DNA from: Candidatus Caenarcanales bacterium
GTDB lineage: Bacteria > Cyanobacteriota > Vampirovibrionia > LMEP-6097
Direction of reading: 5' to 3'
Assembly (NCBI GenBank): GCA_022447685.1
Contig: JAKVAO010000004.1
Coordinates: 1,978-65,977, forward strand
DNA: 64,000 nucleotides
Made by a program: the position numbers and the translations under genes
The notes under the pieces: model-generated
What the model saw: only the letters and a program-made list of their open reading frames with translations
Database searches by the model: none
Told to the model about the DNA's origin: nothing
Part shown: positions 7,221-63,523 of the stretch, piece after piece
Layout: each line of letters starts with the position of its first letter
Numbering within the stretch: position 1 is the stretch's first letter

Positions 7221-8393
7221 ATGGACTATATTAAACGAGTAATTAAATTACCGAAGAAATATAGTTTTTTCCTTTTTGGACCGAGACAAGTAGGTAAAAG
7301 TACTCTTCTAAAGAAATATTTTTCTGAGACTGAGAGTATGAAATATGATCTATTAGACTTTTCACTACTAAGGAAATTAGAAAAGGATCCCAGTATATTT
7401 TTTAATGAAGTAGAGTCAAGAGCTAAAAAAATAAAATATGTTTTAGTTGATGAAGTACAAAAACTCCCTTGGATACTAGATGAAGTTCATAGAGTGATTG
7501 AGAATAGTGAAAATCCACCTTATTTTATACTCACAGGTTCAAGTTCACGCAAACTAAAACAATCTCAAGCCAATCTTCTAGCTGGCAGGGCAATATCAAA
7601 ATTTCTATTTCCATTTATCTATGAAGAACTGCACAATTTTAATTTAAATGAAATCTTGCAATTCGGTTCTCTACCTAATGTTTATCTTCAGGAGGACAAA
7701 AATATTAAATACGAAATCCTGAAATCATATACCAACACATATATAAAAGAAGAGATTAAAGAAGAAGCTCTGGTTAGAAATCTCAATGCTTTCAATGAAT
7801 TTTTATACTTTGCTGCTGAAGAGAATGGCAATCTAATAAATTACAGCAATATAGCTCAAGATACTGGAGTTAGTTTAAATACGATTAAGGAATATTATCA
7901 AATACTCATGGATACATTAATGGGTTTTATGCTCATGCCAATCAGAAAGTCAGTCAGGCAACAAATAGCAAGAAGCCCAAAGTTCTATTTTTTTGATACT
8001 GGAGTTCAAAGAGCTTTAAGCAACAAACTACAAGTAGCACTAGTCCAAAAAACCAAAGAATACGGTAAAGCTTTTGAGCACTGGCTTATAAAAGAAATCA
8101 TCTATAAATCTAAGTACAACAATAAAGACTATAAGTTTTCTTTCTATAGAGTAAATGAAAATATTGAAGTTGATTTAGTAATTGAAAAGCCAGATGGAGA
8201 AATACTTGCTATAGAAATCAAAGCAAATAATAACCCTAAAGCAGAAAAATTGAAAGGTTTAAAATCATTTAATAAAATTTTCCCTGAAGCAAAGCTAATA
8301 TGCTCCTGTCTTACAGACAAAATCCAAGAGATAAATAAAGATAATTATAAAATTACTATAATTCCATGGCGAGATCTTCTTGAACTTATATGA
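7221..8393 (+). CDS. AAA+ ATPase, DUF4143 family (COG1373), paralog 1
   Basis: Walker A motif LFGPRQVGKST near the N-terminus, an hhhhDE Walker B (YVLVDEVQ) and a C-terminal DUF4143-like region. It is paralogous to the genes at 15624, 17649 and 62291. Confidence 0.8.
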   Translation: MDYIKRVIKLPKKYSFFLFGPRQVGKSTLLKKYFSETESMKYDLLDFSLLRKLEKDPSIFFNEVESRAKKIKYVLVDEVQKLPWILDEVHRVIENSENPPYFILTGSSSRKLKQSQANLLAGRAISKFLFPFIYEELHNFNLNEILQFGSLPNVYLQEDKNIKYEILKSYTNTYIKEEIKEEALVRNLNAFNEFLYFAAEENGNLINYSNIAQDTGVSLNTIKEYYQILMDTLMGFMLMPIRKSVRQQIARSPKFYFFDTGVQRALSNKLQVALVQKTKEYGKAFEHWLIKEIIYKSKYNNKDYKFSFYRVNENIEVDLVIEKPDGEILAIEIKANNNPKAEKLKGLKSFNKIFPEAKLICSCLTDKIQEINKDNYKITIIPWRDLLELI

Positions 8394-9959: not shown

Positions 9960-9967
9960 TTTCTAAT
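9960..9967. repeat. left copy of 8-bp target-site duplication TTTCTAAT
   Basis: Identical octamer at 11219..11226, directly abutting the IS inverted repeats. Confidence 0.6.
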
Positions 9968-11218
9968 TCAGGGCAACCGCAAAGTCGTCTTAGCTATTTT
10001 GGAAAAGAATATCTTGTAAGTACTGATTACTAGAAGCCGCTTTAACTCTTCGTGTTTTAAGACTTTTCTTCGACTCAGAATCTTTTTTAAGTAAATTTAA
10101 AGCAATTTTTCTAGCCATAGCAAGGTTTTGTGGAGCATTATCCTTTCTTACTCTTGATTCATCTTCTCTAAAAACAACATCTAAAATACAATGTAAGTTG
10201 TTTTCTATGTTCCAATGAGATCTAACAATATTCAGCAACTCTTCTGCAGAAAGGTTTAAGCTCGTTATGTAATATCTTCTTTGGCTGGTTTCTTTTTTTG
10301 TTTTTACATCATATTTTTGAGATTCAACAACAAATACCGTTTTTAAATCTTTCCAAGCTGTAATATTATCAAAAAGTTTTTCTTTAATATCCCACTCCGT
10401 GAGAGGGACTGTGTAACATAGAAGTTTTTCAATTCTTCCATGATCTTTCTCAAATTTAGTTTCAAAAAAATCATACTCTCTTTTAAAACCTTCTTCTATT
10501 CCTTTATCTAAAAAGCTTTTTACATTTTTATGGAACAAGCCTTGATTACCTTTTAAAGCTAAAACATAATCAGCTTTTGCTTTTCTAATATCTTTTGCTA
10601 TTTCTTTTTGACAGCCCATTGCATCGATAGTTACTATCTTCTTATTCAAGTCTAAAAGCCTTATCAGTTCAGGAATTGCTGTAATTTCATTACTCTTTTT
10701 GTCTACTGCCACTTGTCCAAGACTCAAGCCATTACTACAACACCAAACATTTACTAAGTGCAAGGCTGACTTTTTTGAGCTATTTTCATATGAAGATCTC
10801 AATGTTTTACCATCAATAGCTACTATTGCTCCTTCTGTGATAGTTGCAAGCGCTTGTGACCAAGCAGTAAAACAGTTAGCAAATTCCTTTGGATTTATTT
10901 CTGCAAAAACTCTTTCAAAAGTATCATGGGACGGGATGCCGTGTTTTAAATCTAAAAAAGTTCTTAACCAATCTTCTTTCGCTTCACATATTGCTACTAT
11001 TTCCTCCCAGTCATCAGTTTTACAGATACTTCCGACTATCGCTAAGAGAATTATTTCTAGCAAATCGTGACGTTTTCCACGAGAATCACGAGGATCTTCT
11101 AGCTCATTAAAATATTCTTCTACTAAACTTTTACTTACTTTCACAACTCTATTAAGTCATGAATACTGGCTATTGGCCAGACTTACATTCGTATTAGACG
11201 ACTTTGCGGTTGCCCTGA
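9968..11218 (-). mobile_element. ISAs1-family insertion sequence (1251 bp), intact
   Basis: ~23-bp terminal inverted repeats: TCAGGGCAACCGCAAAGTCGTCT at 9968.. and its reverse complement ending at 11218. It contains a single transposase ORF and is flanked by the 8-bp direct repeat TTTCTAAT. Confidence 0.8.
9990..11144 (-). CDS. ISAs1-family (H-repeat-associated) DDE transposase
   Basis: 384 aa carrying the ISAs1 hallmark blocks KSNEITAIPELIRLLD, DAMGCQKEIA, LKGNQG, YYITSL and SHWNIENNLHCILDVVFREDE. Confidence 0.85.
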   Translation of the reverse strand: MKVSKSLVEEYFNELEDPRDSRGKRHDLLEIILLAIVGSICKTDDWEEIVAICEAKEDWLRTFLDLKHGIPSHDTFERVFAEINPKEFANCFTAWSQALATITEGAIVAIDGKTLRSSYENSSKKSALHLVNVWCCSNGLSLGQVAVDKKSNEITAIPELIRLLDLNKKIVTIDAMGCQKEIAKDIRKAKADYVLALKGNQGLFHKNVKSFLDKGIEEGFKREYDFFETKFEKDHGRIEKLLCYTVPLTEWDIKEKLFDNITAWKDLKTVFVVESQKYDVKTKKETSQRRYYITSLNLSAEELLNIVRSHWNIENNLHCILDVVFREDESRVRKDNAPQNLAMARKIALNLLKKDSESKKSLKTRRVKAASSNQYLQDILFQNS

Positions 11219-11991
11219 TTTCTAATTACACTCCACCCTCAAGTACTATAAGTTTCAATTACAACAACACAAATCAGACTTTAGTTAAGACTATTGATTA
11301 TAAAGAGCCGGAACTTAATATACCTGGATCTGATGCTAGTCAGAAAATGAAAGCAACAGAAAATGATAATAGAAACAATCATACCCTGACAACAAAACTT
11401 AATGCTATTCCAACAAATATAGAAAACACTGAAAACCTAGTAGCAATAAAAGTACCAGACAACTTTAATATGCAGCAATTTGAAAATATAGGTAGAGAAT
11501 TGTCAGAAGAACTTAATATTCAAATTGAAAAACCTGAAGAGCAAGCTCCAGATCTAAGTGATTTCATTGACATGAAAGAAATTAATCAATTTAACAACAA
11601 TGATACACAAGGAAAAACAGATACACTTCTTAAAACCTTTACAGAAGTAAGAAACTTTTTAAACAAGCCAGAAACTAATATATTTGGAAAAGTAGTTATA
11701 GATACAATGCTAGACAGCCTCTCAAAACTAGTAAAGGAAAATTATGATCAAGTAATTAAGAACGAGACTAACAATAACTCCAAGGATAATTTTAATAAAC
11801 TATTTTTACAATTAAGAGTACTTAAAGTGATTTTAGAAAAGCAAAACACAATTAATAATCTAAATCCCCCAGGACATGACCGACACGACCAAATCGCAGC
11901 AGAAGGCAGAGATATTATTCATACATACGTTGGAAAAATAATTAACCAGACCAATACAATACTTCCAGAAGACCAACAAATGGACTTATAA
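11173..11991 (+). CDS. hypothetical effector-like protein, 5' end replaced by the IS insertion (the present ORF starts at a TTG inside the IS inverted repeat)
   Basis: Removing 9968..11226 restores ...TATCTTAAAATT ATG ATT TCT AAT TAC ACT CCA CCC TCA AGT, encoding MISNYTPPSS, which joins in frame to the downstream body. The Q/N-rich body has no known domain. Confidence 0.6.
   Translation: MARLTFVLDDFAVALISNYTPPSSTISFNYNNTNQTLVKTIDYKEPELNIPGSDASQKMKATENDNRNNHTLTTKLNAIPTNIENTENLVAIKVPDNFNMQQFENIGRELSEELNIQIEKPEEQAPDLSDFIDMKEINQFNNNDTQGKTDTLLKTFTEVRNFLNKPETNIFGKVVIDTMLDSLSKLVKENYDQVIKNETNNNSKDNFNKLFLQLRVLKVILEKQNTINNLNPPGHDRHDQIAAEGRDIIHTYVGKIINQTNTILPEDQQMDL
11219..11226. repeat. right copy of 8-bp target-site duplication TTTCTAAT
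   Basis: Matches 9960..9967. Confidence 0.6.
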
Positions 11992-15505: not shown

Positions 15506-15611
15506 CTATGTTGCACCAAACCTAAATCGACGAATACTTTATTTTCCATAAGATTGCTAAGCGTTTCTAAGCAATTATTAACAAATCGCAAAAAATTTGC
15601 AATTTCATAGG

Positions 15612-15617
15612 TATAAT
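15612..15617 (+). promoter_or_regulatory. -10 box AGGTATAAT, 6 nt upstream of ATG 15624
   Basis: Same GGTATAAT-N6-ATG arrangement as at 7209 and 62278. Confidence 0.4.
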
Positions 15618-15623
15618 ACAAAT

Positions 15624-16829
15624 ATGCAAAAAATTTCCCGAACAATATTAAGTAAATTAATATCTGAGCTGGAGAACGACAAAGTATTGATTCTTTTAGG
15701 AGCAAGGCAAGTTGGTAAAAGCTTTCTAATGAATGAACTAGAGTTAAAACTTAAAAAAGCATCCAAGAAATTTAATAGCTATAACTTAGAAATCCCAAAA
15801 GATAACCGAATCTTCGCTAGAGATGAATTAGAGCTATATGAAGAAATCAGTGAAGGAGTAAATTATTTATTTATAGATGAATTTCAATATTATAATAATG
15901 CTTCTCATTTATTCAAAGCCTTTTATGATGATAGAAGAAAAAAAATCAAAGTTATAGCATCTGGTTCATCTGCTTTAGAAATGCATAAACACCTAAAAGA
16001 AAGTTTAGCTGGCAGAAAAAAAACCTATATTATTTACCCACTTAGCTTCAAAGAAGCTCAAGAAACCAAGGTCAGTTTTAATAATTATTTACTATACGGT
16101 GCTTTAGCAGAAATCCTTAATATAGAACAAAAAACAGATAAAATCACTGCACTTGAAGAAATACACAGTACTTATATATTAAAAGATATCAAAGCACTGA
16201 TTAAAGAAGAAAGTATTTCTAGTTTCAATGCTTTAATATACAGCTTAGCTCAAAACCAAGGACAAATTATTTCAAGTAATTCTTTAGCGAATGATTTGCG
16301 TTTAAATACACAAAGCTTAGAGCGTTACCTAGAGATTCTAGAACAAACCTATGTTCTTTATAAATTATCTAGTTTTTCTAAAAACTTAAGTAATGAGCTA
16401 AAAAAATCTAAAAAATACTATTTTTATGACAGTGGAATTCGAAACTCAATACTAAATAACTTCTCATCGATAGAAAAAAGAAAAGATAAAGGCAGTATCT
16501 ACGAAGCTTACGTAGCACAATTCTTAACTATTAACTCAATACCAAACTCAGAGCTTCGCTTCTGGAGAACCAGGAATGGAGATGAAATTGATTTCGTATT
16601 CTTAAAAAACCAAGTTCCGTATTTATTTGAGGTAAAATCGAAACTAAAAAGAAAAGAAATTCCAAATGCTATGAAAATCTTTTTGCGTAATTACCGTGAG
16701 ATTGGTGGAGCTTATATCATTAACGAAAACCTTGATGAGGAACTAGAATATTCTGGAGTAACTGTAAGATTTATTCCAATTAATAAGCTAGAAGAAGATT
16801 TGGAGATAGCTGAAATATTTTCAACTTAA
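15624..16829 (+). CDS. AAA+ ATPase, DUF4143 family, paralog 2
   Basis: The ORF track starts at TTG 15597, which would run through the TATAAT box. From ATG 15624 the protein MQKISRTILSKLISELENDKVLILLGARQVGKSF aligns with the N-terminus of paralog 3 and shows high identity to it overall. Confidence 0.8.
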   Translation: MQKISRTILSKLISELENDKVLILLGARQVGKSFLMNELELKLKKASKKFNSYNLEIPKDNRIFARDELELYEEISEGVNYLFIDEFQYYNNASHLFKAFYDDRRKKIKVIASGSSALEMHKHLKESLAGRKKTYIIYPLSFKEAQETKVSFNNYLLYGALAEILNIEQKTDKITALEEIHSTYILKDIKALIKEESISSFNALIYSLAQNQGQIISSNSLANDLRLNTQSLERYLEILEQTYVLYKLSSFSKNLSNELKKSKKYYFYDSGIRNSILNNFSSIEKRKDKGSIYEAYVAQFLTINSIPNSELRFWRTRNGDEIDFVFLKNQVPYLFEVKSKLKRKEIPNAMKIFLRNYREIGGAYIINENLDEELEYSGVTVRFIPINKLEEDLEIAEIFST

Positions 16830-17648: not shown

Positions 17649-18863
17649 ATGCAGGAATTTCAAAGACAATTAATAGAAACCCTGCTTAAAGAACTTACGA
17701 ACTCTAAAGTTACCTTAATCTTTGGACCTAGACAGAGTGGTAAAAGCTTTTTGATGAATCACATAGCAAGTCAAGTAAAAGGCAAATTTACTTACTACGA
17801 TTTTGAACAACCTGCTGATCTTAGAAAATTTACAGGCAATGATGAGGATATACATGAACTACTTCTAAATTCAGGCAAAACAGTATTCATAGACGAATTT
17901 CATTATCTAAAAAATGCCGGGAAAATTTTTAAAGGAATCTATGACTTAGGTAAACGTAACCCTAAAAAACAAATCAAAATCTTTGCCTCCGGCTCTTCTG
18001 CCATTGAAATGCACAAACATATAAAAGAAAGTATGGCTGGAAGAGTTCACAAATACCAACTTATGCCTCTAAGCTTAGAAGAATACTCATCTATTGATTT
18101 AGATAAAGAAAATTACTTTATTTATGGTGGCTTACCAGAGACTTATCAATATGACGGAGAAGAAAGAGAGAGCTACCTAAATGGTATTCTTGAAACCTAC
18201 ATCCAGAAAGACATTAAATCTCTAGTAAAAGAAGAGAACATTTCAAGTTTTAATAAATTAATCTATATGCTTGCAGCAAGTCAAGGACAAGTAGTCTCAG
18301 TGAGTAATCTTGCAAATGACTTAAGCGTATCAGCACAAACAGTTCAATCTTACCTAGATACTTTGGAGCAGACTTATACTCTTTATCCTTTGAAATCCTT
18401 TTCAAATAACCTTAGCAATGAATTAAAAAAATCGCGTAAGTACTACCTCTATGACCTAGGAATTAGAAATGCACTAATTAAAGACTTTAGTAAATTAAAT
18501 GAGCGCAAAGATCTTGGCTGCATTATGGAAAGCTATGTTTATCACTATCTTCTCTTCATAGCCAATAAAGCAAATACCGATATTTTCTTCTGGAGAACTA
18601 GTAAAGGCAATGAGGTAGACTTCGTCTGGAAAAAAAATCAAAAACTTATTCCTATAGAGGTAAAAAACAAATATGAAGTGAGTAATCTTAGTAAAGGTAT
18701 GGAAACCTTCATGAGATATTACCCTCTAACAGAAAAAGCTATTATTTTGTTTAATAAGTCAAATAATTTTGATGATTATCAGGAAATTAATCTTCGAGGT
18801 AGGACTCTTTATTTAATAAATATTGGAAATGCTCATTTATACTTGAGGGATGTTTTGCAGTAG
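17649..18863 (+). CDS. AAA+ ATPase, DUF4143 family, paralog 3
   Basis: Walker A motif IFGPRQSGKSF, with long blocks identical to paralog 2 (SSFN.LIY.LA..QGQ..S.SNLANDL.....Q....YL..LEQTY.LY.L.SFS.NLSNELKKS.KYY.YD.GIRN). Confidence 0.8.
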   Translation: MQEFQRQLIETLLKELTNSKVTLIFGPRQSGKSFLMNHIASQVKGKFTYYDFEQPADLRKFTGNDEDIHELLLNSGKTVFIDEFHYLKNAGKIFKGIYDLGKRNPKKQIKIFASGSSAIEMHKHIKESMAGRVHKYQLMPLSLEEYSSIDLDKENYFIYGGLPETYQYDGEERESYLNGILETYIQKDIKSLVKEENISSFNKLIYMLAASQGQVVSVSNLANDLSVSAQTVQSYLDTLEQTYTLYPLKSFSNNLSNELKKSRKYYLYDLGIRNALIKDFSKLNERKDLGCIMESYVYHYLLFIANKANTDIFFWRTSKGNEVDFVWKKNQKLIPIEVKNKYEVSNLSKGMETFMRYYPLTEKAIILFNKSNNFDDYQEINLRGRTLYLINIGNAHLYLRDVLQ

Positions 18864-36568: not shown

Positions 36569-36863
36569 ATTTCAGTGTCTCCTTGTTAATCTTTAGTATT
36601 TACTAAAATTTTATTCCACCTATTATTATTGCAAATCATAAGACTTAGTGAAGAAAACGAAAATCGTTCTCAATAAAAGAAAGCTAAGCTCTAATAAAGC
36701 TTGCATAAAATGCAGATTATTTACAACTGAGATAAGAAGAACTTAACTTTAATAAGTTATATAATCTATGGTGTGTGTAGTCTAAAGCTACTAAAAACTA
36801 AATAGAATACTTAAAACATTGAGTGTTATCAATAGTGTGTTTGATCATCCGGGAGGGCAGTGA

Positions 36864-37049
36864 ATGAATACAGACTGTAAAACACTAGAAGATGTTTGTG
36901 AATCAAAGTCTATGAGAAGACTCGACTCGCTTCGTGGTGAACTGGTATGCGAACAGTTAAAGGATCACGAGGATGAAGTTCTAGAGTCCTTTAGAGACAT
37001 TGAGCAAATAAATACACTTCTAGAAAATCGACAAAGAAAGCTTTTTTAA
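36864..37049 (+). CDS. small hypothetical protein (61 aa)
   Basis: Strong SD GGGAGGG 6 nt upstream of the ATG. Acidic, helical composition. Two perfect hairpins (9-bp and 11-bp stems) follow at 37050..37125. Confidence 0.35.
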   Translation: MNTDCKTLEDVCESKSMRRLDSLRGELVCEQLKDHEDEVLESFRDIEQINTLLENRQRKLF

Positions 37050-37134
37050 GTAAGAAACCTCTCTTACTTAAGTCGCCATCAAGAAAAGTCCACGCCTGTT
37101 TCTTTGGACTTTTCTTGACTTTGCTTTCAAACAT

Positions 37135-37689
37135 TTATATAAGTTCAGGTAGAGTAACAACTACGTTTGCTCTAACCGGAACAGCTTTAGAAACGTCTTT
37201 ATTACCATTAGATGTAGATTTAGCCCAAGGACTAGCTTTAGCCTTCAGTTTAAATTTAAGCTCCCTAGTATCTGAATCATAGTTAACAACAGTTAAAGTT
37301 CCAGTAGCACTAGTATCATCTGTAGATGTAATACCAGTAGTCTTAGTATTTAAACCATTGATTTTAGTTTTTTGACCTTGGAAAACGATTACAGCTTGAT
37401 TAACATCTTCATTCGCTGTAGATGTAATATCAAGTTTGGTACCTTTCTCTAATAACTCAACAGCATTTGTGGGAAGAATAACAGTTAAAGTACCAGAAAC
37501 AGTTCCTTTAGCTCCACCTAAAGTGATATTAATTCTATCCGCTTGCTGAACTGCTGCAACAGAATTACCACCTTCAGAGTTGCTTACACTTCTATAAGCA
37601 ACAAAACCGAATTTAACTTTAGCTTTATCCTTAGCAAAAACTGCTGAACACATTAATAAAACACTTAATACACAGAATATTTTTTTCAT
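37135..37689 (-). CDS. secreted hypothetical protein (184 aa), T/S/G-rich, beta-rich
   Basis: Signal peptide MKKIFCVLSVLLMCSAVFA followed by a mature domain with no assignable family. Confidence 0.55.
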   Translation of the reverse strand: MKKIFCVLSVLLMCSAVFAKDKAKVKFGFVAYRSVSNSEGGNSVAAVQQADRINITLGGAKGTVSGTLTVILPTNAVELLEKGTKLDITSTANEDVNQAVIVFQGQKTKINGLNTKTTGITSTDDTSATGTLTVVNYDSDTRELKFKLKAKASPWAKSTSNGNKDVSKAVPVRANVVVTLPELI

Positions 37690-37727
37690 TATTTTGATCT
37701 CCTAATATTTGCTGATTATATATTAAA

Positions 37728-38621
37728 TTAAACAAGTTTTTCTTCAATAAGATCATGAAGTTTATCTTTACTTTTTTGAGTAACACTATCGATAAATGAA
37801 TAAGCTCTATAAATGTGCAAATCCTCGAAAGTTTTTTGGAGTTTTTCTTGAAGTTTAGATTGTTGTTTATTCATATTAACAGTCACTTCAGGGAAATAAA
37901 CTTTTGGAAAAAAAGAATCTTTAATATAATTAGTCATCTTCTCTACAGAGTCAAAATTAACAGTATTATCAACAAGAGATTTAATGAATTTATCAATGTT
38001 TTCATTCTTTCTTATTTCATTATTTGCACTTGGATTAATATCTATAAAACGGTGATACAAAGCTTTTGCACTATCTTCTAAACTAGCATAAGATTTTTCC
38101 GTAGGAGTTTCAACTATATATCCCATACTTGGATTCCTATAAGAACCTTCAAGATACAAAGAATCAATTAAGGGTAAAGCATTTTGCTCGATAAACTCTT
38201 CTACTATTTTAGGGTTACTTTTTTTAAGTAAATGAGACAACCAGAAAATTTGATGATTAAATGAAAACAAATCACGTTGAAACTCTTCTTTAAACTGCAA
38301 GTCATCATCAAAAAATTGAGACAAAGTTTGCTGCTTATTAGACAGTGGGTCATATCTGTAATATTCATGTGTGAAATTATCTAACTTTTCTTTAAATCTA
38401 CCTAACTCCTCTTTCTGCATTTGCAAAAAATCTGATTCAGGAATAACAGAAATACTCTTCAAAGGCTCATTTGGCTTTTTGAAAAGTACTCCATATTTTT
38501 TGGTATAAAGTTCATTAGCATTTCTAACTTGAAGATCAGCTTCGGCAACAGTAACTTTATTCTCAGTATTTAAATGAGAAGTAACAGGTTCTTTTAAAGT
38601 AGTAGTAACTGCCTTAACCAT
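37728..38621 (-). CDS. hypothetical protein (297 aa)
   Basis: Clean ORF with coding-like composition and no motif recognised. Confidence 0.55.
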   Translation of the reverse strand: MVKAVTTTLKEPVTSHLNTENKVTVAEADLQVRNANELYTKKYGVLFKKPNEPLKSISVIPESDFLQMQKEELGRFKEKLDNFTHEYYRYDPLSNKQQTLSQFFDDDLQFKEEFQRDLFSFNHQIFWLSHLLKKSNPKIVEEFIEQNALPLIDSLYLEGSYRNPSMGYIVETPTEKSYASLEDSAKALYHRFIDINPSANNEIRKNENIDKFIKSLVDNTVNFDSVEKMTNYIKDSFFPKVYFPEVTVNMNKQQSKLQEKLQKTFEDLHIYRAYSFIDSVTQKSKDKLHDLIEEKLV

Positions 38622-38776
38622 AAACTAATAAAAGCCCTGAAACAAAGAATAAAATCTTAAATTTCAGAATTTATAAATTAACTAATTGATTAGATAAAAT
38701 CATACCAAAGAAGTAAATCAAATACAAGTGTTTTTCAAAACCAATTACTAAAGATAATAATATTTTAACAATAAAA

Positions 38777-39045
38777 GGTGGCATCGAGATTAGCTATTTT
38801 CGACTGAAGCCGAGTCAAGCGAAAGCTTGCTTTCATTTGCGAGTGAAAGTCGTAAACACGGAGTTTCCCCGCAGCGAAGCTGACGGGGTATTACGCAAAT
38901 CTGGAGAAACACTTTGTGTTTCTGAGCCTTCACAATCAGCGAGTGAAAGCTCTATGAGCTCTCCCTCACAAATAGCTCAGGCTACGATGCCACTTTTGTT
39001 ACTCGTTCGTCCTATTCATCTCCTTAGCAAAGCTAAGGAGTATTT
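38777..39045. ncRNA. candidate structured non-coding RNA (class undetermined)
   Basis: Intergenic segment with much higher G+C than its surroundings. The 5' GGTGGCATCG (38777..38786) pairs with CGATGCCAC (38985..38993), followed by TTTT. Nested perfect hairpins: GAAAGC-TT-GCTTTC, CCCCG-N11-CGGGG, AGAAACAC-TTT-GTGTTTCT, AGCTC-TAT-GAGCT, and CTCCTTAGC-AAA-GCTAAGGAG at 39019..39039. The overlapping ORF 38837..39115 has implausible composition. Confidence 0.3.
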
Positions 39046-39132
39046 CGAACTCATAATAAATATTTCGCGCCCAAATAAAAATCCCCACTTTTTTCAAAGC
39101 AGGGATTCTATTTAATTATTCAATAAATTCAA

Positions 39133-39732
39133 CTAAGCAGCTACAGCTTCGTTGAAGTAATCTTTAAGACCATCTTCAGTAGGCTTCATAGCTTTATCGC
39201 CTTCGTTCCAGTTAGCTGGACAAACTTCACCATTCTTCTCGAAGAACTGAAGAGCTTTAACCATTCTGATAGCTTCATCAATATTTCTTCCTAAAGGTAA
39301 GTTGTTTACAACTTGGTGTTGAACAGTTTGTTCTTTGTCGATAAGGAATAAACCTCTGAAAGCTACTCCCATGTTTTCTTCAACAACATCATAAGCTTCA
39401 GCGATTTCTTTCTTAAGGTCAGAAACTAAAGCGTACTTAACGCCTTTGATACCGCCTTGGTTCTTATCAGTGTTTAACCAAGCGAAGTGAGAGAACTTAG
39501 AATCAACAGAAACTCCAATAACTTCTGTATCTAAACTATTAAATTCTTCCAATTTAGCTTGGAAAGCGTGTAATTCAGTTGGGCAAACAAATGTGAAATC
39601 TAATGGATAGAAAAATAAAACTACATATTTCTTACCTTTGAAATCACTCAATTTGATTTGCTTAAACTCTGTACCGTTAACAACTGCGTCAGCTGTAAAA
39701 TCTGGTGCTTCTTTTCCTACTAATACTCCCAT
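39133..39732 (-). CDS. 2-Cys peroxiredoxin (AhpC/TSA family)
   Basis: FFYPLDFTFVCPTE contains the peroxidatic Cys motif. The resolving Cys lies in GEVCPANW. Length is 199 aa. Confidence 0.9.
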   Translation of the reverse strand: MGVLVGKEAPDFTADAVVNGTEFKQIKLSDFKGKKYVVLFFYPLDFTFVCPTELHAFQAKLEEFNSLDTEVIGVSVDSKFSHFAWLNTDKNQGGIKGVKYALVSDLKKEIAEAYDVVEENMGVAFRGLFLIDKEQTVQHQVVNNLPLGRNIDEAIRMVKALQFFEKNGEVCPANWNEGDKAMKPTEDGLKDYFNEAVAA

Positions 39733-47896: not shown

Positions 47897-50455
47897 TTAT
47901 AAAAAAGCTAGCTGAGATTTTTTTGCATCTATATCAGATCTAAGTGAATTAGCTTTATCCTCATCATAGTTAGGTGTTGACTCAAGAGTTAATAGTTCAC
48001 TTTCTAGACTTGCTATTTCATCTTCTATAAATATTCTTTGTTCTTCATCATTTGTAATATCTCTATTAACAAAGAATGCATCAACTGTATCTCTTGTAAC
48101 TGATTCACCATCAACATCCATAGTAAAGCTACTGGTTAAACTTATATCGTTACCATTTTTATCAAACTTCTCACCAACGTTTCCAGAGTAGTTAGTTGAA
48201 ATAGATGTGATGCCTACTTCTTCAAGACCTTTCATCTCACCTTTGCCAACTTTACCGTCTCCATCCATATCAGCCCAAACTTTAAGCTCACTGAATGCTT
48301 CATCTTCAGATGTAATTTGACCATCTTGGTTGGTATCTAATTTAGCTAATTCTTCATAACCATTATCAGCATCGTTTTGATCACCAAATAATTCTGAACC
48401 GTCATCAATTTGACCGTTACCATTTCTATCTAATGCTAAGAATGCATCATCAAACCCTTGACTACTTTGTGTCCATGCTGTTCTATCTAATTGTTGATCT
48501 GCATTTAAGTCGAAGTTAACTCCATTTTCAACAGATGTTAATTCGATTCCATCACCATCTATATCTAAGATCACTGGAGATGACCATCTGAAAGAAGAAT
48601 CAACTACTTCATAATCCTGACCTTCTACTTCAATTGTTTGACCAGCTACAGTATCATCTGCTACATCACCCCATGCATTAGTATTACCAGACAATTCATT
48701 TCTATCTATTGTTCCAAGAACCTCTCCAGAGTGAATATCTACTATTACTGGTGTCGTAGCAGACATTTCTTTATCTTCGTCTGACATCATAGCCAAGACA
48801 TTTTGATAAAGCTCGTCATTTGTTGAATCATAGTTTATTTGATTATAGTTATAACCATTATGATTATCACCGAATTGTCCACCAGATACACCCATTATAT
48901 CTCCAAGTGAATGTGCATCCCAACCACCAACTACTATTACTTCTCTAGGTGCAATCATATCCTGTAATTCACTACTAGTAACTGTTTGATCGCCGAAAGC
49001 AAATGTTTCTACATTAGTTACTGTATTAACATCACCATTATCATTATCAGTAAATGTAAAAGTATTATTACCTTCATCAGTTATTGAATAACTACTAAAA
49101 CCTTTATTTAGAGCTAAAGTATCATTTCCCTCGCCACCATCTATAGTATTGTCTCCATAACCGTCAGTTATTATGTCATCTCCAGCTCCACCTTCGATAT
49201 TATCGTTTCCTTCACTACCGTCAATGACATCGTCACCGAATCCACCATCTATGGTGTCGTTTCCAGCTCCACCGTCTATAGTATCGTCTCCAGCTCCACC
49301 ATCTATAATATCGTCACCAGCACCACCATCAATTGTGTCATCACCATCTCCACCATCTATAATATCGTCACCGGCTCCGCCGTCTATAATGTCATCACCA
49401 TCTCCTCCATTAATAGTGTCGTTACCTTCTCCACCATTAAGATTGTCATTGCCAGCTCCGCCATTAAGAATGTCATTACCTTCGCCACCAATCAATGTAT
49501 CGTTACCACCATTACCATTGATAGTGTCATCACCATCTAAACCATTTATTTCATCATCGCCATCGGTTCCCTCTAACACATCATCACTATCTGTAGCAAA
49601 ACCTAATGCGATAGCTTCATGTAATTCAGCTATTGTGAATAATTCTTCGCCATCATCAGTAAGGAATAAAAAGTTTTCTACACTCATTACAGTGGTAGTA
49701 TTTTCTGGATTATCAGCATCTGTAATTCTGATATTATTTCCGCTATCATAGTCAATTATAAAATCATCAGTACTTCCCTCAAAAACAACAGTATCTTCTC
49801 CTAAACCACCCATAACAGTGTTTTGTCCAGTACCAGCTACTATAAAGTCGTTTCCGTTTCCAGCATCTATTAGATCATTACCCGGACCACCATGTATATA
49901 GTCATCACCATTTCCAGCTATAATATGGTCATCACCGGCTTCCCCATAAATAACATCATTTCCATTTCCACCATAGACTCTGTCATCACCTGATCCAGCT
50001 AGTATTGAATCATTTCCACTACCGCCACTTATTAGGTCATCTCCTGCACCTGCGTCAATAACATCGTTACCACTAGTTGAACTTACATTATCATCACCAT
50101 CGCCACTATCTATGATTGCGTCACTAACTACTGCAGAAATTATCCTATCATTACCATCAAATGAAGCAATATTACTATTATCATAGTCATAGATTGTATC
50201 GCCGTCATTACTTCCTGATCTTATATCGTTGCCATTTCTATTAAAAGTATTATTGCCTGACAATTCGTTTCTCATTGAGTCCAAACGTGAACTTATATTA
50301 TCGACATCAATAGGAGCTAGGTCAGGATTATCCGCCATTGCTCTATCCAGTGTAGGGTCATATGATTGCCCATTAACCTTAACGCCTTTTCGGGTTAAAT
50401 TGTTCTCTTCAATGTTTATCAAACTATCATTTAAAAAATTATTATTTATAACCAT
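47897..50455 (-). CDS. RTX-family calcium-binding repeat protein (852 aa) with additional EF-hand/dockerin-like Ca loops
   Basis: More than 25 nonapeptide GGxGxDxUx repeats (for example GGAGDDIIDGGDGDDTIDGGAGDD). Later D-x-D/N-x-D-G-x-I loops (DRNGNGQIDDGSE, DTNQDGQITSEDE, DMDGDGKVGKGE). No signal peptide, consistent with a T1SS-type substrate. Confidence 0.8.
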   Translation of the reverse strand: MVINNNFLNDSLINIEENNLTRKGVKVNGQSYDPTLDRAMADNPDLAPIDVDNISSRLDSMRNELSGNNTFNRNGNDIRSGSNDGDTIYDYDNSNIASFDGNDRIISAVVSDAIIDSGDGDDNVSSTSGNDVIDAGAGDDLISGGSGNDSILAGSGDDRVYGGNGNDVIYGEAGDDHIIAGNGDDYIHGGPGNDLIDAGNGNDFIVAGTGQNTVMGGLGEDTVVFEGSTDDFIIDYDSGNNIRITDADNPENTTTVMSVENFLFLTDDGEELFTIAELHEAIALGFATDSDDVLEGTDGDDEINGLDGDDTINGNGGNDTLIGGEGNDILNGGAGNDNLNGGEGNDTINGGDGDDIIDGGAGDDIIDGGDGDDTIDGGAGDDIIDGGAGDDTIDGGAGNDTIDGGFGDDVIDGSEGNDNIEGGAGDDIITDGYGDNTIDGGEGNDTLALNKGFSSYSITDEGNNTFTFTDNDNGDVNTVTNVETFAFGDQTVTSSELQDMIAPREVIVVGGWDAHSLGDIMGVSGGQFGDNHNGYNYNQINYDSTNDELYQNVLAMMSDEDKEMSATTPVIVDIHSGEVLGTIDRNELSGNTNAWGDVADDTVAGQTIEVEGQDYEVVDSSFRWSSPVILDIDGDGIELTSVENGVNFDLNADQQLDRTAWTQSSQGFDDAFLALDRNGNGQIDDGSELFGDQNDADNGYEELAKLDTNQDGQITSEDEAFSELKVWADMDGDGKVGKGEMKGLEEVGITSISTNYSGNVGEKFDKNGNDISLTSSFTMDVDGESVTRDTVDAFFVNRDITNDEEQRIFIEDEIASLESELLTLESTPNYDEDKANSLRSDIDAKKSQLAFL

Positions 50456-62290: not shown

Positions 62291-63523
62291 GTGACTAAAG
62301 GTTTACTACGTAAAAATTATTTAAAGTCTATTAAGCCTTTTATAGATAAATCTGTAATTAAGGTTATTATTGGTATGCGCCGTAGTGGGAAAAGTTATTT
62401 CCTAAGGCAAATAATTGAAAAGCTTATAGGGCAAGAAAAACAAGTTGTTTATATCGATAAAGAAAATTTGGATTTTAAAAATATTAGAGATTTTAATGAT
62501 TTAGATGAGTATATTAAATCCAAAATTAATAAGAGAAAAAAAACTTATTTATTTATTGACGAGATTCAAGATATTCAAGGCTGGGAGAAAGCAATAGCTT
62601 CATATCAAGGTTCAGGTAATTTTGATATTTATATTACAGGATCTAATTCTGAGCTTTTATCTTCTGAATTATCAACACTAATATCTGGTCGCTATGTTGA
62701 ATTTTATCTCTATACATTATCTTTTAATGAATTTATTGAATTTAGGAAAAGATCATTGAAAAAATTTAAACGTAAAAATTCTAATAAAGTAAATTTGCAA
62801 AAAGAATTTTTGAATTATTTGGCATTTGGTGGTCTACCAGGAATTCATGAATTTGACTTAGATAGAGAAAATATTTATAAATTAATAAATGCTATTTTCA
62901 GCACTATCGTTTTAAAAGATTTAGTAGCTAGGTATGAGATTCGAAATGTAAGAATTCTTGAAAATATTTATAGTTTTATTTTTGATAATATAGCTAATAT
63001 TTTTTCAGCAAAAAAAATTGCTGATTATTATAAATCTCAAAATATAAAAGTTAGTGTAGATACGGTTCTTAGTTATATATCTCATTTAGAAGCAGCTATG
63101 CTTTGTAAAAAAGTTCCTCGCTATGATCTAAAAGGGAAGAGACTTTTAGAAGTCCAAGAAAAGTATTTTTTAAATGATATTGGTTTTAGAAATGCTTTAT
63201 TAGGTTTTAGCTTAAAAGATATCAATGCTTTACTTGAAAATGTGGTTTATTTGCATTTGAAAATGGCTGGATATCAAGTATATATTGGAAAAATGGATAA
63301 TTATGAAATAGATTTTGTCGCCAAAAAGCGTGATGAAATAATTTATTATCAAGTTTGTTATTTACTTAATGACGAAAAGGTAGTAGAAAGAGAGTTTAGA
63401 CCTCTTCTCAGGATAGAAGATGCTTATCCTAAGTATGTTTTAAGTATGGATGAACTATGGGATGAGCATTATTGTGGGATTAAACGTTTGAATATTATTG
63501 AGTTTCTTTGTGAGGTTTTTTAG
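62291..63523 (+). CDS. AAA+ ATPase, DUF4143 family, paralog 4
   Basis: GTG start. Walker A motif IIGMRRSGKSY, Walker B (YLFIDEIQ) and the C-terminal DUF4143-like region. Confidence 0.8.
   Translation: MTKGLLRKNYLKSIKPFIDKSVIKVIIGMRRSGKSYFLRQIIEKLIGQEKQVVYIDKENLDFKNIRDFNDLDEYIKSKINKRKKTYLFIDEIQDIQGWEKAIASYQGSGNFDIYITGSNSELLSSELSTLISGRYVEFYLYTLSFNEFIEFRKRSLKKFKRKNSNKVNLQKEFLNYLAFGGLPGIHEFDLDRENIYKLINAIFSTIVLKDLVARYEIRNVRILENIYSFIFDNIANIFSAKKIADYYKSQNIKVSVDTVLSYISHLEAAMLCKKVPRYDLKGKRLLEVQEKYFLNDIGFRNALLGFSLKDINALLENVVYLHLKMAGYQVYIGKMDNYEIDFVAKKRDEIIYYQVCYLLNDEKVVEREFRPLLRIEDAYPKYVLSMDELWDEHYCGIKRLNIIEFLCEVF

What the first reader, a model, noticed from the sequence alone, without database searches (positions are those of the whole stretch)
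38777..39045. GC-rich, highly structured intergenic element that looks like an ncRNA gene
The element lies between two minus-strand protein genes (37728..38621 and 39133..39732). The G+C content jumps well above the local background, which is typical of structural RNA genes in AT-rich genomes.

A 9 to 10-bp closing helix pairs GGTGGCATCG (38777) with CGATGCCAC (38985), followed by TTTT, enclosing about 200 nt. At least four perfect internal hairpins lie inside it: GAAAGC/GCTTTC, CCCCG/CGGGG, AGAAACAC/GTGTTTCT and AGCTC/GAGCT. A fifth perfect 9-bp hairpin, CTCCTTAGC-AAA-GCTAAGGAG, lies at 39019..39039.

The only ORF through the region (38837..39115) has non-protein-like composition. The size and closing-stem architecture are compatible with a 6S-like or other regulatory RNA. 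I could not match RNase P, tmRNA, SRP or common riboswitch signature sequences by eye. The strand is undetermined, because there is a T-run after the closing stem on both strands.
Basis: seen in the sequence. Interest (0 to 1): 0.55.

Follow-up and report, generated by a model that had tools for sequence, protein, structure and literature searches.

The report
Structured mobile repeat, IS605-like ends
The GC-rich folded stretch is real and kept in shape by selection, but it is one copy of a small, gene-less mobile repeat scattered through marine Caenarcaniphilales genomes, built like an IS200/IS605-type mini-transposon, and not a housekeeping RNA gene such as 6S.

Summary
Window 38770-39060 is a 291-nt, 48% G+C, very strongly folding, non-coding block in a 33% G+C genome, with no Rfam match.

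It is not a syntenic single-copy RNA gene. The closest relatives (AhpC 96-98% identical) lack it at this locus, and L127 shows the empty site. Three more copies, each exactly 222 nt, lie at unrelated loci in the related MAG DT_14. The window copy is the same unit plus a 69-nt internal module.

Across the copies, five base pairs in four helices show compensatory double changes. The fold is a four-way junction plus a separate hairpin domain.

Read on the window's minus strand, the unit has the anatomy of an IS200/IS605-type non-autonomous element (PATE):
- It has no terminal inverted repeats.
- TTTAT sits in the 5' flank and again at the 3' terminus.
- A hairpin lies near each end.
- AATA directly precedes the foot of both hairpins. 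This is the position-wise complement of TTAT, as with AAAG/TTAC in IS608.

The roughly 160-nt junction domain ends at the terminal TTTAT, where TnpB guide-RNA scaffolds sit.

Still open: no TnpA or TnpB was found, transcription is untested, and the strand is only favoured, not proven. This is a new member of a known kind, of moderate interest.

The parts
38770..39060 (-). Whole repeat unit, long variant: 291 nt, made of the 222-nt family core plus a 69-nt module. If the IS605 reading is right, the element proper is 39055 to 38771 on the minus strand, and TTTAT at 39060-39056 is the flanking target motif.
   Evidence: Limits of homology to L131, L132/L129 and L137. The empty site is seen in L127. 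nhmmer and the covariance model recover only this copy in the window.
39056..39060 (-). TTTAT on the minus strand, directly 5' of the unit. Candidate target or left cleavage motif (TAM / C_L).
   Evidence: Present at the same position in all four independent copies, while the sequence further out differs.
39041..39044 (-). AATA on the minus strand, directly 5' of the foot of the left hairpin. Candidate left guide tetranucleotide (G_L).
   Evidence: Invariant in four copies. It is the position-wise complement of TTAT, as AAAG is to TTAC in IS608 (PMC3201880, PMC5934647).
39020..39040 (-). Left near-terminal hairpin: 9 bp with a 3-nt loop. Candidate IP_L.
   Evidence: One compensatory U-A to A-U change in L137. 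One change in L132 gives G.U on the minus strand and C/A on the plus strand.
39005..39050 (-). Outer 5-bp helix GUUCG/CGAAC that encloses the left hairpin.
   Evidence: Compensatory C-G to U-A change in L137.
38777..38993 (-). Junction domain closed by helix P1 (38777-38786 with 38985-38993). It contains long hairpin P2 (38925-38983), hairpin P3 (38905-38923), and stem P4 (38787-38794 with 38895-38902), which carries hairpin P5.
   Evidence: RNAalifold consensus on both strands. Two compensatory double changes fall in P1. The MFE is lower on the minus strand in all four copies.
38867..38888 (-). Right near-terminal hairpin (P5): CCCCG-(T)-CAGC TTC GCTG-CGGGG on the minus strand, with a conserved bulged T. 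Candidate IP_R.
   Evidence: C-G, U.G and U-A all occur at one pair across the copies. The bulge is kept in all copies. The top of the stem (AGC-NNN-GCT) matches the left hairpin.
38889..38892 (-). AATA on the minus strand, directly 5' of the foot of the right hairpin. Candidate right guide tetranucleotide (G_R).
   Evidence: Invariant in four copies.
38797..38865 (.). 69-nt internal module, found only in the window copy and its strain variants. It forms three extra hairpins, including CAAGC-GAAA-GCTTG, and carries the first GCGAGTGAAAG.
   Evidence: Absent from the three DT_14 copies, which are all exactly 222 nt. No match elsewhere. Weak similarity to the reverse complement of the unit's own P2-P3 region.
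38771..38775 (-). TTTAT at the 3' terminus of the unit on the minus strand. Candidate right cleavage motif (TEM / C_R). A TnpB-type guide would start just beyond it.
   Evidence: CTTTTAT is invariant in the four copies, and homology ends one base later.
39073..39100 (-). Intrinsic terminator of ahpC. It is not part of the element and marks where the native intergenic DNA resumes.
   Evidence: Stem plus U-run, picked up by terminator-containing Rfam models. It is conserved in position in relatives that lack the element.

Best explanation
**What it is.** Window 38770-39060 is one copy, a 291-nt long variant, of a 222-nt gene-less repeat. The repeat is dispersed in marine Caenarcaniphilales (non-photosynthetic cyanobacteria).

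**How it most likely moves.** It is most likely a non-autonomous IS200/IS605-type element, that is, a palindrome-associated transposable element (PATE). Its active top strand is the window's minus strand. On that strand it inserts 3' of TTTAT. It carries a hairpin near each end for a Y1 (HUH) TnpA transposase supplied in trans. AATA sits at the foot of each hairpin and would pair with the TTAT of the cleavage sites.

**What the middle part may do.** The roughly 160-nt four-way-junction domain between the left end and the terminal TTTAT is probably transcribed. It may act as the scaffold of a TnpB-type guide RNA (omega/reRNA) whose guide is read from the 3' flank.

**Shown here.**
- The unit is dispersed in several copies.
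- It is present or absent at a given locus among close relatives.
- Its boundaries are sharp.
- It is non-coding.
- Its helices covary.
- The motif layout is as described.

**Inferred only.** The transposition mechanism, the active strand, transcription, and any guide-RNA role.
For: **1. Mobile or dispersed.**
- The element is absent from the ahpC locus of the closest relatives.
- L127 shows the ahpC terminator joined directly to the spacer that follows the element in the window.
- Three further copies sit on three scaffolds of MAG DT_14. This is the same genome as L005, which lacks the element at the ahpC locus.
- Neighbouring genes differ at each copy and the orientation varies.

**2. Sharp boundaries and a conserved motif.** All four copies share the same boundaries, with TTTAT in the minus-strand 5' flank and CTTTTAT at the 3' end.

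**3. No terminal inverted repeats.** The left and right ends are not reverse complements of each other (direct reading).

**4. Near-terminal hairpins with guide-like AATA.**
- The two hairpins share the stem top AGC-NNN-GCT, and the right one has a conserved bulged T.
- AATA directly precedes both hairpin feet in all four copies. A chance estimate is about 2e-4 before allowing for the choices made.
- The geometry copies IS608: the guide AAAG sits 5' of the hairpin foot, the cleavage site is TTAC, and A+17 pairs with T-4 (PMC3201880, PMC5934647).
- The plus-strand reading fails the same test. In the window copy, the only one computed before the script stopped, the tetranucleotides are GTTT and TCAT. 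For the other copies this rests on my reading of the sequences.

**5. TTTAT is a documented target motif.** It is a TAM of an IS605-family TnpB, and PATEs are reported often to encode omega RNAs (PMC10055086).

**6. Selection beyond what TnpA needs.** The long-range closing helix P1 carries two compensatory double changes. Five pairs in all covary, which 0 of 500 shuffles reach, and slid controls give 0-1. This points to a folded RNA.

**7. Position and size.** The junction domain is about 160 nt and abuts the terminal motif. This matches the roughly 150-nt right-end RNA of ISDra2 (PMC8612924).

**8. Strand.** The minus strand folds 5-12 kcal/mol better in every copy.
Against: - No TnpA (Y1_Tnp) or TnpB gene was found. 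None lies in the 64-kb window: 42 of the 49 listed ORFs of at least 140 aa were scanned against Pfam. ORFs in the 8-kb loci around the other copies were listed but not scanned against protein families. The rest of the genomes could not be searched.
- No full-length IS with the same ends is known.
- Because TTTAT occurs at both borders, a 5-6-bp target-site duplication made by another kind of transposase cannot be excluded.
- The distance from the right hairpin to the cleavage motif is about 22 nt, and 91 nt in the window copy. It is 10 nt in IS608.
- The left hairpin has no bulged base.
- Wobble evidence for the strand is mixed. Four one-sided changes keep G.U on the plus strand against two on the minus strand.
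- No sequence or Rfam similarity to any known guide-RNA scaffold was found.
- Only four independent copies are known, from two closely related genomes.
- No expression data exist.
Confidence: 0.5

Rival explanations
1. It is a multi-copy family of independent small RNA genes: a trans-acting or protein-binding structured RNA of about 220-290 nt. The family would have spread by duplication or recombination and is not an IS605-type transposon. The A/T-rich borders would be its own promoter -10 region (TATTAT on the minus strand) and its terminator U-tract.
For: - Covariation occurs in four helices, including the long-range closing stem.
- G+C is far above background.
- The closing stem is followed by a U-run on either strand.
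- On the minus strand the unit begins at a TATTAT-like hexamer and ends at CUUUUAUU.
- Sequence is strongly conserved: a 66-nt stretch is invariant between the window copy and L129/L132.
Against: - There is no conserved -35 element. In L132 the -10-like hexamer is TATTAG, which has lost the key final T.
- Gene duplication does not explain identical, base-sharp boundaries at four unrelated loci, a clean empty site, or the conserved TTTAT outside the unit.
- It also leaves unexplained why AATA sits at the foot of both near-terminal hairpins.
- This reading is not exclusive of the best explanation, because a mobile element can also carry an RNA gene.
Confidence: 0.2
2. It is another kind of miniature mobile repeat, comparable to ERIC, BOX or Correia-type structured intergenic repeats. 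It would be moved by a DDE or unknown enzyme with a TTTATT target duplication. Its fold would be kept because it is co-transcribed with neighbouring genes and acts there as a stabiliser, an RNase site or an extra terminator.
For: - Copies are dispersed and always intergenic. Two lie directly behind intrinsic terminators.
- Identical hexamers at both borders look like a duplication.
- An internal insertion variant exists, as is known for ERIC (my own knowledge, not tested here).
- The closing stem with flanking A- and U-tracts resembles a two-way terminator.
Against: - There are no terminal inverted repeats, which DDE-type miniature elements need.
- The one IS in the window, ISAs1-like at 9965-11221, has unrelated ends.
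- The same 'duplication' sequence at four independent sites implies a sequence-specific target. That is typical of IS200/IS605 and unusual for DDE elements.
- The AATA/TTAT arrangement would then be a coincidence.
Confidence: 0.2
3. It is a unique housekeeping or regulatory RNA gene (6S-like, RNase P-like or tmRNA-like), or a cis-acting leader or riboswitch of the downstream 297-aa gene.
For: The size, G+C content, closing stem and strong fold fit. On the minus strand it lies upstream of the 297-aa gene.
Against: - No Rfam family matches at any useful threshold, and no tRNA or tmRNA is found.
- The element is missing from the same locus in the closest relatives.
- It is present in several copies next to unrelated genes, in both orientations.
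- The 297-aa gene's upstream region is conserved in L127 without the element.
Confidence: 0.03

Closest known systems
PATEs (palindrome-associated transposable elements), the non-autonomous derivatives of IS200/IS605 elements. Examples: Haloquadratum HqIRS families (PMC3119063) and Geobacillus ISGst PATE-like elements (PMC10055086).
   Same: - A few hundred bases long and gene-less.
- No terminal inverted repeats.
- A palindrome near each end, the two being similar to each other.
- A short conserved targeting oligonucleotide at the 5' flank, repeated at the 3' terminus.
- Strain-specific insertions.
- Copies more than 87% identical.
- Internal deletion or insertion variants.
   Different: - No cognate IS605-type transposon or TnpA/TnpB has been identified.
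- The host lineage (Caenarcaniphilales) has no described PATEs in the literature found here.
- The spacing from the right hairpin to the terminus is longer than in IS608.
- The middle of the unit is an elaborate, covarying four-way junction.
IS608 / ISDra2 transposon ends (IS200/IS605 family)
   Same: - The layout is: cleavage motif, spacer, guide tetranucleotide, hairpin.
- The guide sits directly 5' of the hairpin foot and is the position-wise complement of the cleavage motif. Here that is AATA/TTAT, against AAAG/TTAC in IS608.
- There is an extrahelical T in a hairpin.
- The target is T-rich and 4-5 nt long.
   Different: - Here both ends use the same motif pair, whereas IS608 uses TCAA/GAAT on the right.
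- Distances are 15 nt (left) and about 22 nt (right), against 19 and 10 in IS608.
- There are no tnpA or tnpB genes inside.
TnpB omega RNA / right-end RNA (reRNA)
   Same: - A structured scaffold of about 150-160 nt lies on the top strand and ends at the transposon's right terminal motif, so a guide would be read from the flank.
- The TTTAT motif equals a documented TnpB TAM (PMC10055086).
- PATEs are reported often to encode such RNAs.
   Different: - No sequence or covariance-model similarity to any described scaffold.
- No TnpB gene in reach.
- No remnant of a tnpB 3' coding region is visible in the minus-strand frames.
- Transcription is not shown.
Structured intergenic repeats such as ERIC/IRU, BOX and Correia elements
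   Same: Dispersed, intergenic and strongly folding repeats with size variants caused by internal insertions. Their fold is preserved among copies.
   Different: Those families have terminal inverted repeats or a modular box structure and, where known, TA-type duplications. This unit has neither inverted termini nor sequence similarity to them.
6S RNA
   Same: About 200 nt, G+C-rich relative to the genome, closed by a terminal stem.
   Different: 6S RNA is a single-copy gene with conserved synteny, folds into a rod with a central bubble, and is recognised by Rfam. None of this holds here.

Membership tests
IS200/IS605-derived PATE | No terminal inverted repeats | tested here: met
   The ends AATAAAAGGTGGC... 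and ...GAACTCATAATAAA are not reverse complements. The 9-bp closing stem is subterminal on one side only: 7 nt from one end and 67 nt from the other.
IS200/IS605-derived PATE | A palindrome (hairpin) close to each terminus, the two being similar | tested here: met
   The hairpins are at 39020-39040 and 38867-38888. They are the hairpins nearest to each end in the 222-nt form. They share the stem top AGC-NNN-GCT and a pyrimidine-rich 5' arm (6 of 9 positions). Both show covariation.
IS200/IS605-derived PATE | Insertion 3' of a short specific oligonucleotide, with a similar motif as the last bases of the element and no other target duplication | tested here: inconclusive
   TTTAT is in the minus-strand 5' flank and at the 3' terminus of all four copies. 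Because the two motifs are identical, this looks the same as a 5-6-bp duplication. The one empty site (L127) is too diverged to decide.
IS200/IS605-derived PATE | Guide tetranucleotide directly 5' of each hairpin foot that pairs with the cleavage motif | tested here: met
   AATA precedes both feet in all four copies and is the position-wise complement of TTAT. The rule is taken from IS608: G_L AAAG, C_L TTAC, A+17 pairing with T-4 (PMC3201880, PMC5934647). No covariation is available, because all copies carry the same motifs.
IS200/IS605-derived PATE | Too short to encode a transposase, non-coding | tested here: met
   The unit is 222-291 nt. The only open frame carries three stops in L137 and shows no third-position bias.
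IS200/IS605-derived PATE | Several dispersed copies with strain- or species-specific insertions | tested here: met
   Four independent loci are known. The element is absent at the ahpC locus in L004-L007 and L127.
IS200/IS605-derived PATE | Cognate Y1 transposase TnpA, or a full-length IS with the same ends, in the same genome | not testable with these tools
   None lies in the 64-kb window: 42 of the 49 ORFs of at least 140 aa were scanned against Pfam. ORFs near the DT_14 copies were only listed, not scanned against protein families.
TnpB omega RNA (reRNA) | Structured scaffold of about 120-250 nt on the top strand ending at the right terminal motif, with the guide taken from the 3' flank | tested here: inconclusive
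   Position and size fit: the junction domain is about 160 nt and ends 1 nt before TTTTAT. The RNA itself and its 3' end were not observed.
TnpB omega RNA (reRNA) | A TnpB nuclease encoded with it or elsewhere in the genome | not testable with these tools
   No OrfB_IS605 or Zn-ribbon protein is in the window. The rest of the genome is out of reach.
TnpB omega RNA (reRNA) | Similarity to a described scaffold family | tested here: not met
   No Rfam 15 match at E<=10 on either the long or the short form. No match in the phage or plasmid collections.
6S RNA | Match to the 6S covariance models, and a rod-like fold with a central bubble | tested here: not met
   No hit at E<=10. The consensus fold is a four-way junction.
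6S RNA | Single-copy gene conserved in position among relatives | tested here: not met
   Absent at the syntenic locus in relatives, and present in several copies elsewhere.
MITE of a DDE transposon | Terminal inverted repeats matching those of a resident IS | tested here: not met
   There are no terminal inverted repeats. The ISAs1-like IS in the window ends in CAGGGCAACCGCAAAGTCGTC, which is unrelated.
Riboswitch / cis-regulatory leader | Constant association with, and orientation towards, a downstream gene class | tested here: not met
   The neighbours are an orphan gene, a large 749-aa gene of unassigned family, a DUF3370 gene and a 574-aa gene. The element is antisense to them at two loci and co-directional at two.
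Retron msr/msd | Reverse transcriptase gene directly downstream | tested here: not met
   The 297-aa neighbour has no Pfam domain and no homologue. The other copies have different neighbours.

The most novel reading that the evidence does not exclude
The four-way-junction RNA is a free-standing, mobile guide- or scaffold-type RNA. It would spread on IS200/IS605-like ends in a streamlined marine melainabacterial genome that has no linked, or perhaps no, TnpB. That would make it either an orphan omega-like RNA serving a nuclease encoded far away, or a new class of selfish structured RNA that has captured single-strand-transposon ends.
Probability: 0.15. Interest if true: 0.65.

Novelty: new member of a known kind. 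Interest (0 to 1): 0.38.

Why it matters
- **For genome scans.** A G+C-rich, strongly folding intergenic block in an A+T-rich genome need not be a housekeeping RNA gene. Copy number and presence or absence in relatives must be checked before covariation is read as evidence for an RNA gene.
- **For the biology.** This appears to be the first description of a PATE-like family in Caenarcaniphilales (non-photosynthetic cyanobacteria known only from metagenomes); the literature search on the order name turned up nothing on such elements.
- **If the guide-RNA reading holds.** The junction domain would be a compact, well-delimited scaffold of about 160 nt with a TTTAT target motif. That would point to a TnpB-type RNA-guided nuclease in this lineage.
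- **For the locus.** The element marks the ahpC-sodB interval as a hot spot of turnover between close relatives.

Tried and rejected
- **Known RNA families.** Rfam over the whole window at gathering score, and over the long and short forms at E<=10, gave nothing in the element. ARAGORN found no tRNA or tmRNA.
- **Coding.** Rejected. There is no Pfam match, and the only 'homologue' is a spurious ORF on another copy. L137 has in-frame stops and there is no third-position bias.
Impossible. AhpC-based loci from relatives do not contain the element.
- **Retron or leader of the 297-aa gene.** Rejected, because that gene is an orphan and the other copies have different neighbours.
- **Internal repeat GCGAGTGAAAG as a family signature.**
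  - The pattern was badly chosen, because the common 222-nt form has only one copy of the motif.
- **Closing-stem pattern in viral contigs.** It gave 19 hits, about the number I estimated from chance alone, and none resembled the element.
- **Other viral scans.** Five further viral scans (the GCGAGTGAAAG double motif, plus core, tail, left-end and right-end words) found nothing.
- **Phage and plasmid blastn.** No match.
- **Profile search of translated copies.** Against 1.8 billion proteins, only the already known spurious ORF appeared.
- **MITE of the ISAs1-like IS in the window.** Rejected, because the ends are unrelated.
- **Plus-strand reading of the IS605 layout.** Rejected, because the guide and cleavage motifs are not complementary (for the window copy; my reading for the others).
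- **Strand assignment from wobble pairs.** Inconclusive, at 4 against 2.
Full report
**1. The observation**

The element lies in a 511-nt gap between two minus-strand genes: a 297-aa orphan (37728-38621) and a 2-Cys peroxiredoxin AhpC (39133-39732). G+C reaches 48.5% at 38800-38999 against 32.9% for the window, the second-highest 200-nt peak in 64 kb.

The closing helix pairs 38777-38786 with 38985-38993, and the listed hairpins are present. Two corrections apply:
- The 9-bp hairpin is at 39020-39040, one base off the stated position.
- GAAAGC/GCTTTC are too close together to form the stated stem.

Folding is far beyond chance. The z-score is -6.5 on the plus strand and -6.8 on the minus strand, with 0 of 200 shuffles as stable. 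For the full unit it is -7.3 on both strands.

The ahpC gene has its own terminator at 39073-39100, upstream of the element on the minus strand. The element occurs once in the window.

**2. Not a known RNA and not coding**

- Rfam 15 gives no match in the whole window at gathering score, and nothing inside the element at E<=10. This holds for both the long and the short form.
- No tRNA or tmRNA is found.
- One plus-strand frame is open across the element. However, copy L137 has three stops in it, and the 38 variable columns fall 16/12/10 over the codon positions. Amino-acid identity drops much faster than nucleotide identity, for example 74% against 89%.

**3. Organism and synteny**

The flanking orphan protein identifies the source as a MAG named Candidatus Caenarcaniphilales bacterium. 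The same contig recurs in many marine metagenomes.

AhpC homologues led to the syntenic locus in relatives with 96-98% (L004-L007, L127) and 84-87% (L008-L014) identical AhpC. The genes ahpC, a 184-aa secreted-protein gene and sodB are conserved. Nothing between them matches window 37700-39133, and there is no comparable G+C peak.

In L127 the ahpC terminator is followed directly by sequence homologous to window 38768-38615, which is the upstream region of the orphan gene. The window therefore carries an extra block of about 290 nt relative to an empty site. This block includes both the closing-stem domain and the 9-bp hairpin.

**4. Further copies**

Searching the translated open frame found one spurious 87-aa ORF (P0122). 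It lies on a different contig, upstream of a DUF3370 gene (L129).

A scan of one genome per species with an invariant 18-mer returned 12 loci. Three are real copies, and all three are in MAG DT_14 (JABSOS01) on scaffolds 27, 19 and 5 (L131, L132, which is the same locus as L129, and L137). DT_14 is the same genome as L005, which lacks the element next to ahpC. The other nine loci are chance matches, as expected for 18 bases.

- The three DT_14 copies are each exactly 222 nt.
- The window copy (38770-39060) is 291 nt: the same unit plus a 69-nt module at 38797-38865.
- Identity between copies is 87-97%.
- Homology stops at the same bases in all copies.
- Neighbouring genes are unrelated. The unit is antisense to them at two loci and co-directional at two.
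- One copy lies 76 nt from a tRNA gene.
- No further copy was found in about 0.9 Mb of fetched loci by a profile HMM, or in the window and the 16 Caenarcaniphilales-related loci (about 0.19 Mb) by a covariance model.
- Phage, plasmid and viral collections hold nothing similar.

**5. Structure and covariation**

On the 222-nt alignment, RNAalifold gives the same architecture on both strands:
- a closing helix P1;
- a long irregular hairpin P2;
- an 8-bp hairpin P3;
- an 8-bp stem P4 carrying hairpin P5;
- outside P1, a 5-bp helix enclosing the 9-bp hairpin.

Five pairs have changes on both sides that keep pairing: two in P1, one in P5, one in the 5-bp helix and one in the 9-bp hairpin. No shuffle out of 500 reaches this, and structures slid by 1-3 columns give 0-1 such pairs. 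P2, P3 and P4 never vary, so they are neither supported nor contradicted.

Strand evidence is mixed:
- One-sided changes that stay paired as G.U number four on the plus strand and two on the minus strand.
- The minus strand folds better in every copy: -108.8 against -104.0, -88.4 against -78.5, -88.6 against -76.1, and -87.0 against -82.1 kcal/mol. The reason is that P2 then gains invariant G.U pairs.

**6. What kind of element**

The unit has no terminal inverted repeats. The only IS in the window, ISAs1-like at 9965-11221, has unrelated ends. Read on the minus strand, each copy shows the following layout:
- TTTAT in the 5' flank;
- 15 nt ending in AATA;
- the 9-bp hairpin;
- the junction domain, in which hairpin P5 (with a conserved bulged T) is directly preceded by AATA;
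- about 22 nt;
- CTTTTAT at the last conserved bases.

This is the layout of IS200/IS605 ends:
- In IS608 the cleavage motifs lie at some distance from subterminal hairpins.
- They are recognised by a guide tetranucleotide directly 5' of each hairpin foot: G_L AAAG for C_L TTAC, with A+17 pairing with T-4.
- Insertion is 3' of the motif without duplication (PMC3201880, PMC5934647).
- AATA is the position-wise complement of TTAT in the same sense.

AATA occurs two or three times per 222-nt copy, and two of these occurrences are exactly at the two hairpin feet. A rough chance estimate is 2e-4 before allowing for my freedom in choosing hairpins, strand and register. The plus-strand reading gives non-complementary tetranucleotides. 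One search shows this for the window copy; for the other copies it rests on my reading.

Gene-less elements with near-terminal palindromes, no inverted termini and a short targeting oligonucleotide are defined as PATEs (PMC3119063). PATE-like elements in Geobacillus are reported often to encode omega RNAs, and TTTAT is the TAM of one TnpB there (PMC10055086).

Two of the four insertions sit in or just after the T-tract of an intrinsic terminator, which naturally supplies TTTAT.

**7. A possible RNA function**

TnpA needs only the two hairpins and the motifs, yet the long-range helix P1 also covaries. The junction domain is about 160 nt and ends one base before the terminal TTTTAT. This is where the roughly 150-nt right-end RNA of ISDra2 lies, with its guide read from the flank (PMC8612924).

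I therefore infer, without direct evidence, that the domain is a TnpB-type guide-RNA scaffold transcribed from the minus strand.

**8. What is missing**

- No TnpA or TnpB gene lies in the window. Of the 49 listed ORFs of at least 140 aa, 42 were scanned against Pfam. They are housekeeping genes, one ISAs1-type transposase, or have no family match.
- I could not search the rest of these genomes.
- Identical motifs at both borders cannot be told apart from a short target duplication.
- Spacing on the right side differs from IS608.
- There are no expression data.

**9. The window copy**

Its 69-nt module adds three hairpins next to P5 and moves that hairpin 69 nt further from the terminal motif. 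It also coincides with a mismatch in P4. The module aligns weakly to the reverse complement of the unit's own P2-P3 region: score 34, against a shuffled mean of 21 (sd 3.2, maximum 37). It may be a fragment of a second copy.

All three strain-level differences in 2565 nt around the locus fall inside the element (P about 0.0015). Two of them equal the state in copy L131. This suggests exchange between copies, or read mixing, and hence further copies in this genome.

**10. Verdict**

The feature is real and selected for its fold. It is a copy of a dispersed, gene-less mobile repeat and not a unique RNA gene.
- The best-supported mechanism is an IS200/IS605-type PATE on the minus strand (confidence about 0.5).
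- A guide-RNA scaffold role is a weaker inference on top of that (about 0.3).
- This is a new member of a known kind, of moderate interest.

Noticed in passing
window 9965-11221: A complete ISAs1-like insertion sequence. It has a 384-aa DDE transposase (9990-11144, minus strand; DDE_Tnp_1_assoc + DDE_Tnp_1), 26-nt terminal inverted repeats (96% complementary), and a 10-bp direct repeat ATTTCTAATT on both sides. Its ends are unrelated to the element studied.
   Followed up: partly
window 7221-8393, 15597-16829, 17649-18863, 62291-63523: Four paralogous genes for AAA_14 + DUF4143 ATPases within 64 kb. This is an unusual density for one family in a small, A+T-rich genome.
   Followed up: no
window 36569-39132, compared with L004-L008 and L127: The interval between ahpC and the conserved 184-aa secreted-protein gene and sodB is hypervariable among close relatives. 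It holds a 297-aa orphan here, 141-aa and 188-aa genes in L004/L005, a 221-aa gene in L007 (a distant relative of the 188-aa gene), a 204-aa gene in L127, and nothing in L006/L008. None of these has a Pfam domain on record.
   Followed up: partly
window 38779, 38955, 38968 (variants in L128 and L001-L003): All three strain-level differences in 2565 nt fall inside the element. Two of them match the base in the DT_14 copy L131. This suggests gene conversion between copies, or assembly mixing of reads from other copies in the same genome.
   Followed up: partly
L137 2698-2780: A tRNA gene (60.7 bits) lies 76 nt from the L137 copy of the repeat.
   Followed up: no
L040 about 100-700 (JGI12104J13512_1008408): An 88-nt tandem array of at least seven units. 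Each unit has two G+C-rich hairpins enclosed by a CGTAGGGC/GCCCTACG stem. It was found only because it shares GCGAGTGAAAG and is unrelated to the element.
   Followed up: no
window 47897-50455: An 852-aa RTX-repeat protein (10 HemolysinCabind stretches). It accounts for the highest G+C peak of the window (49185-49384), so that peak is coding and not another RNA candidate.
   Followed up: partly
window 38797-38865: The 69-nt module contains GCGAAAGC, and the adjacent hairpin contains GCGAAGC. From my own knowledge, both are known as unusually stable DNA mini-hairpin sequences. They are on the plus strand and are not conserved in the other copies.
   Followed up: no
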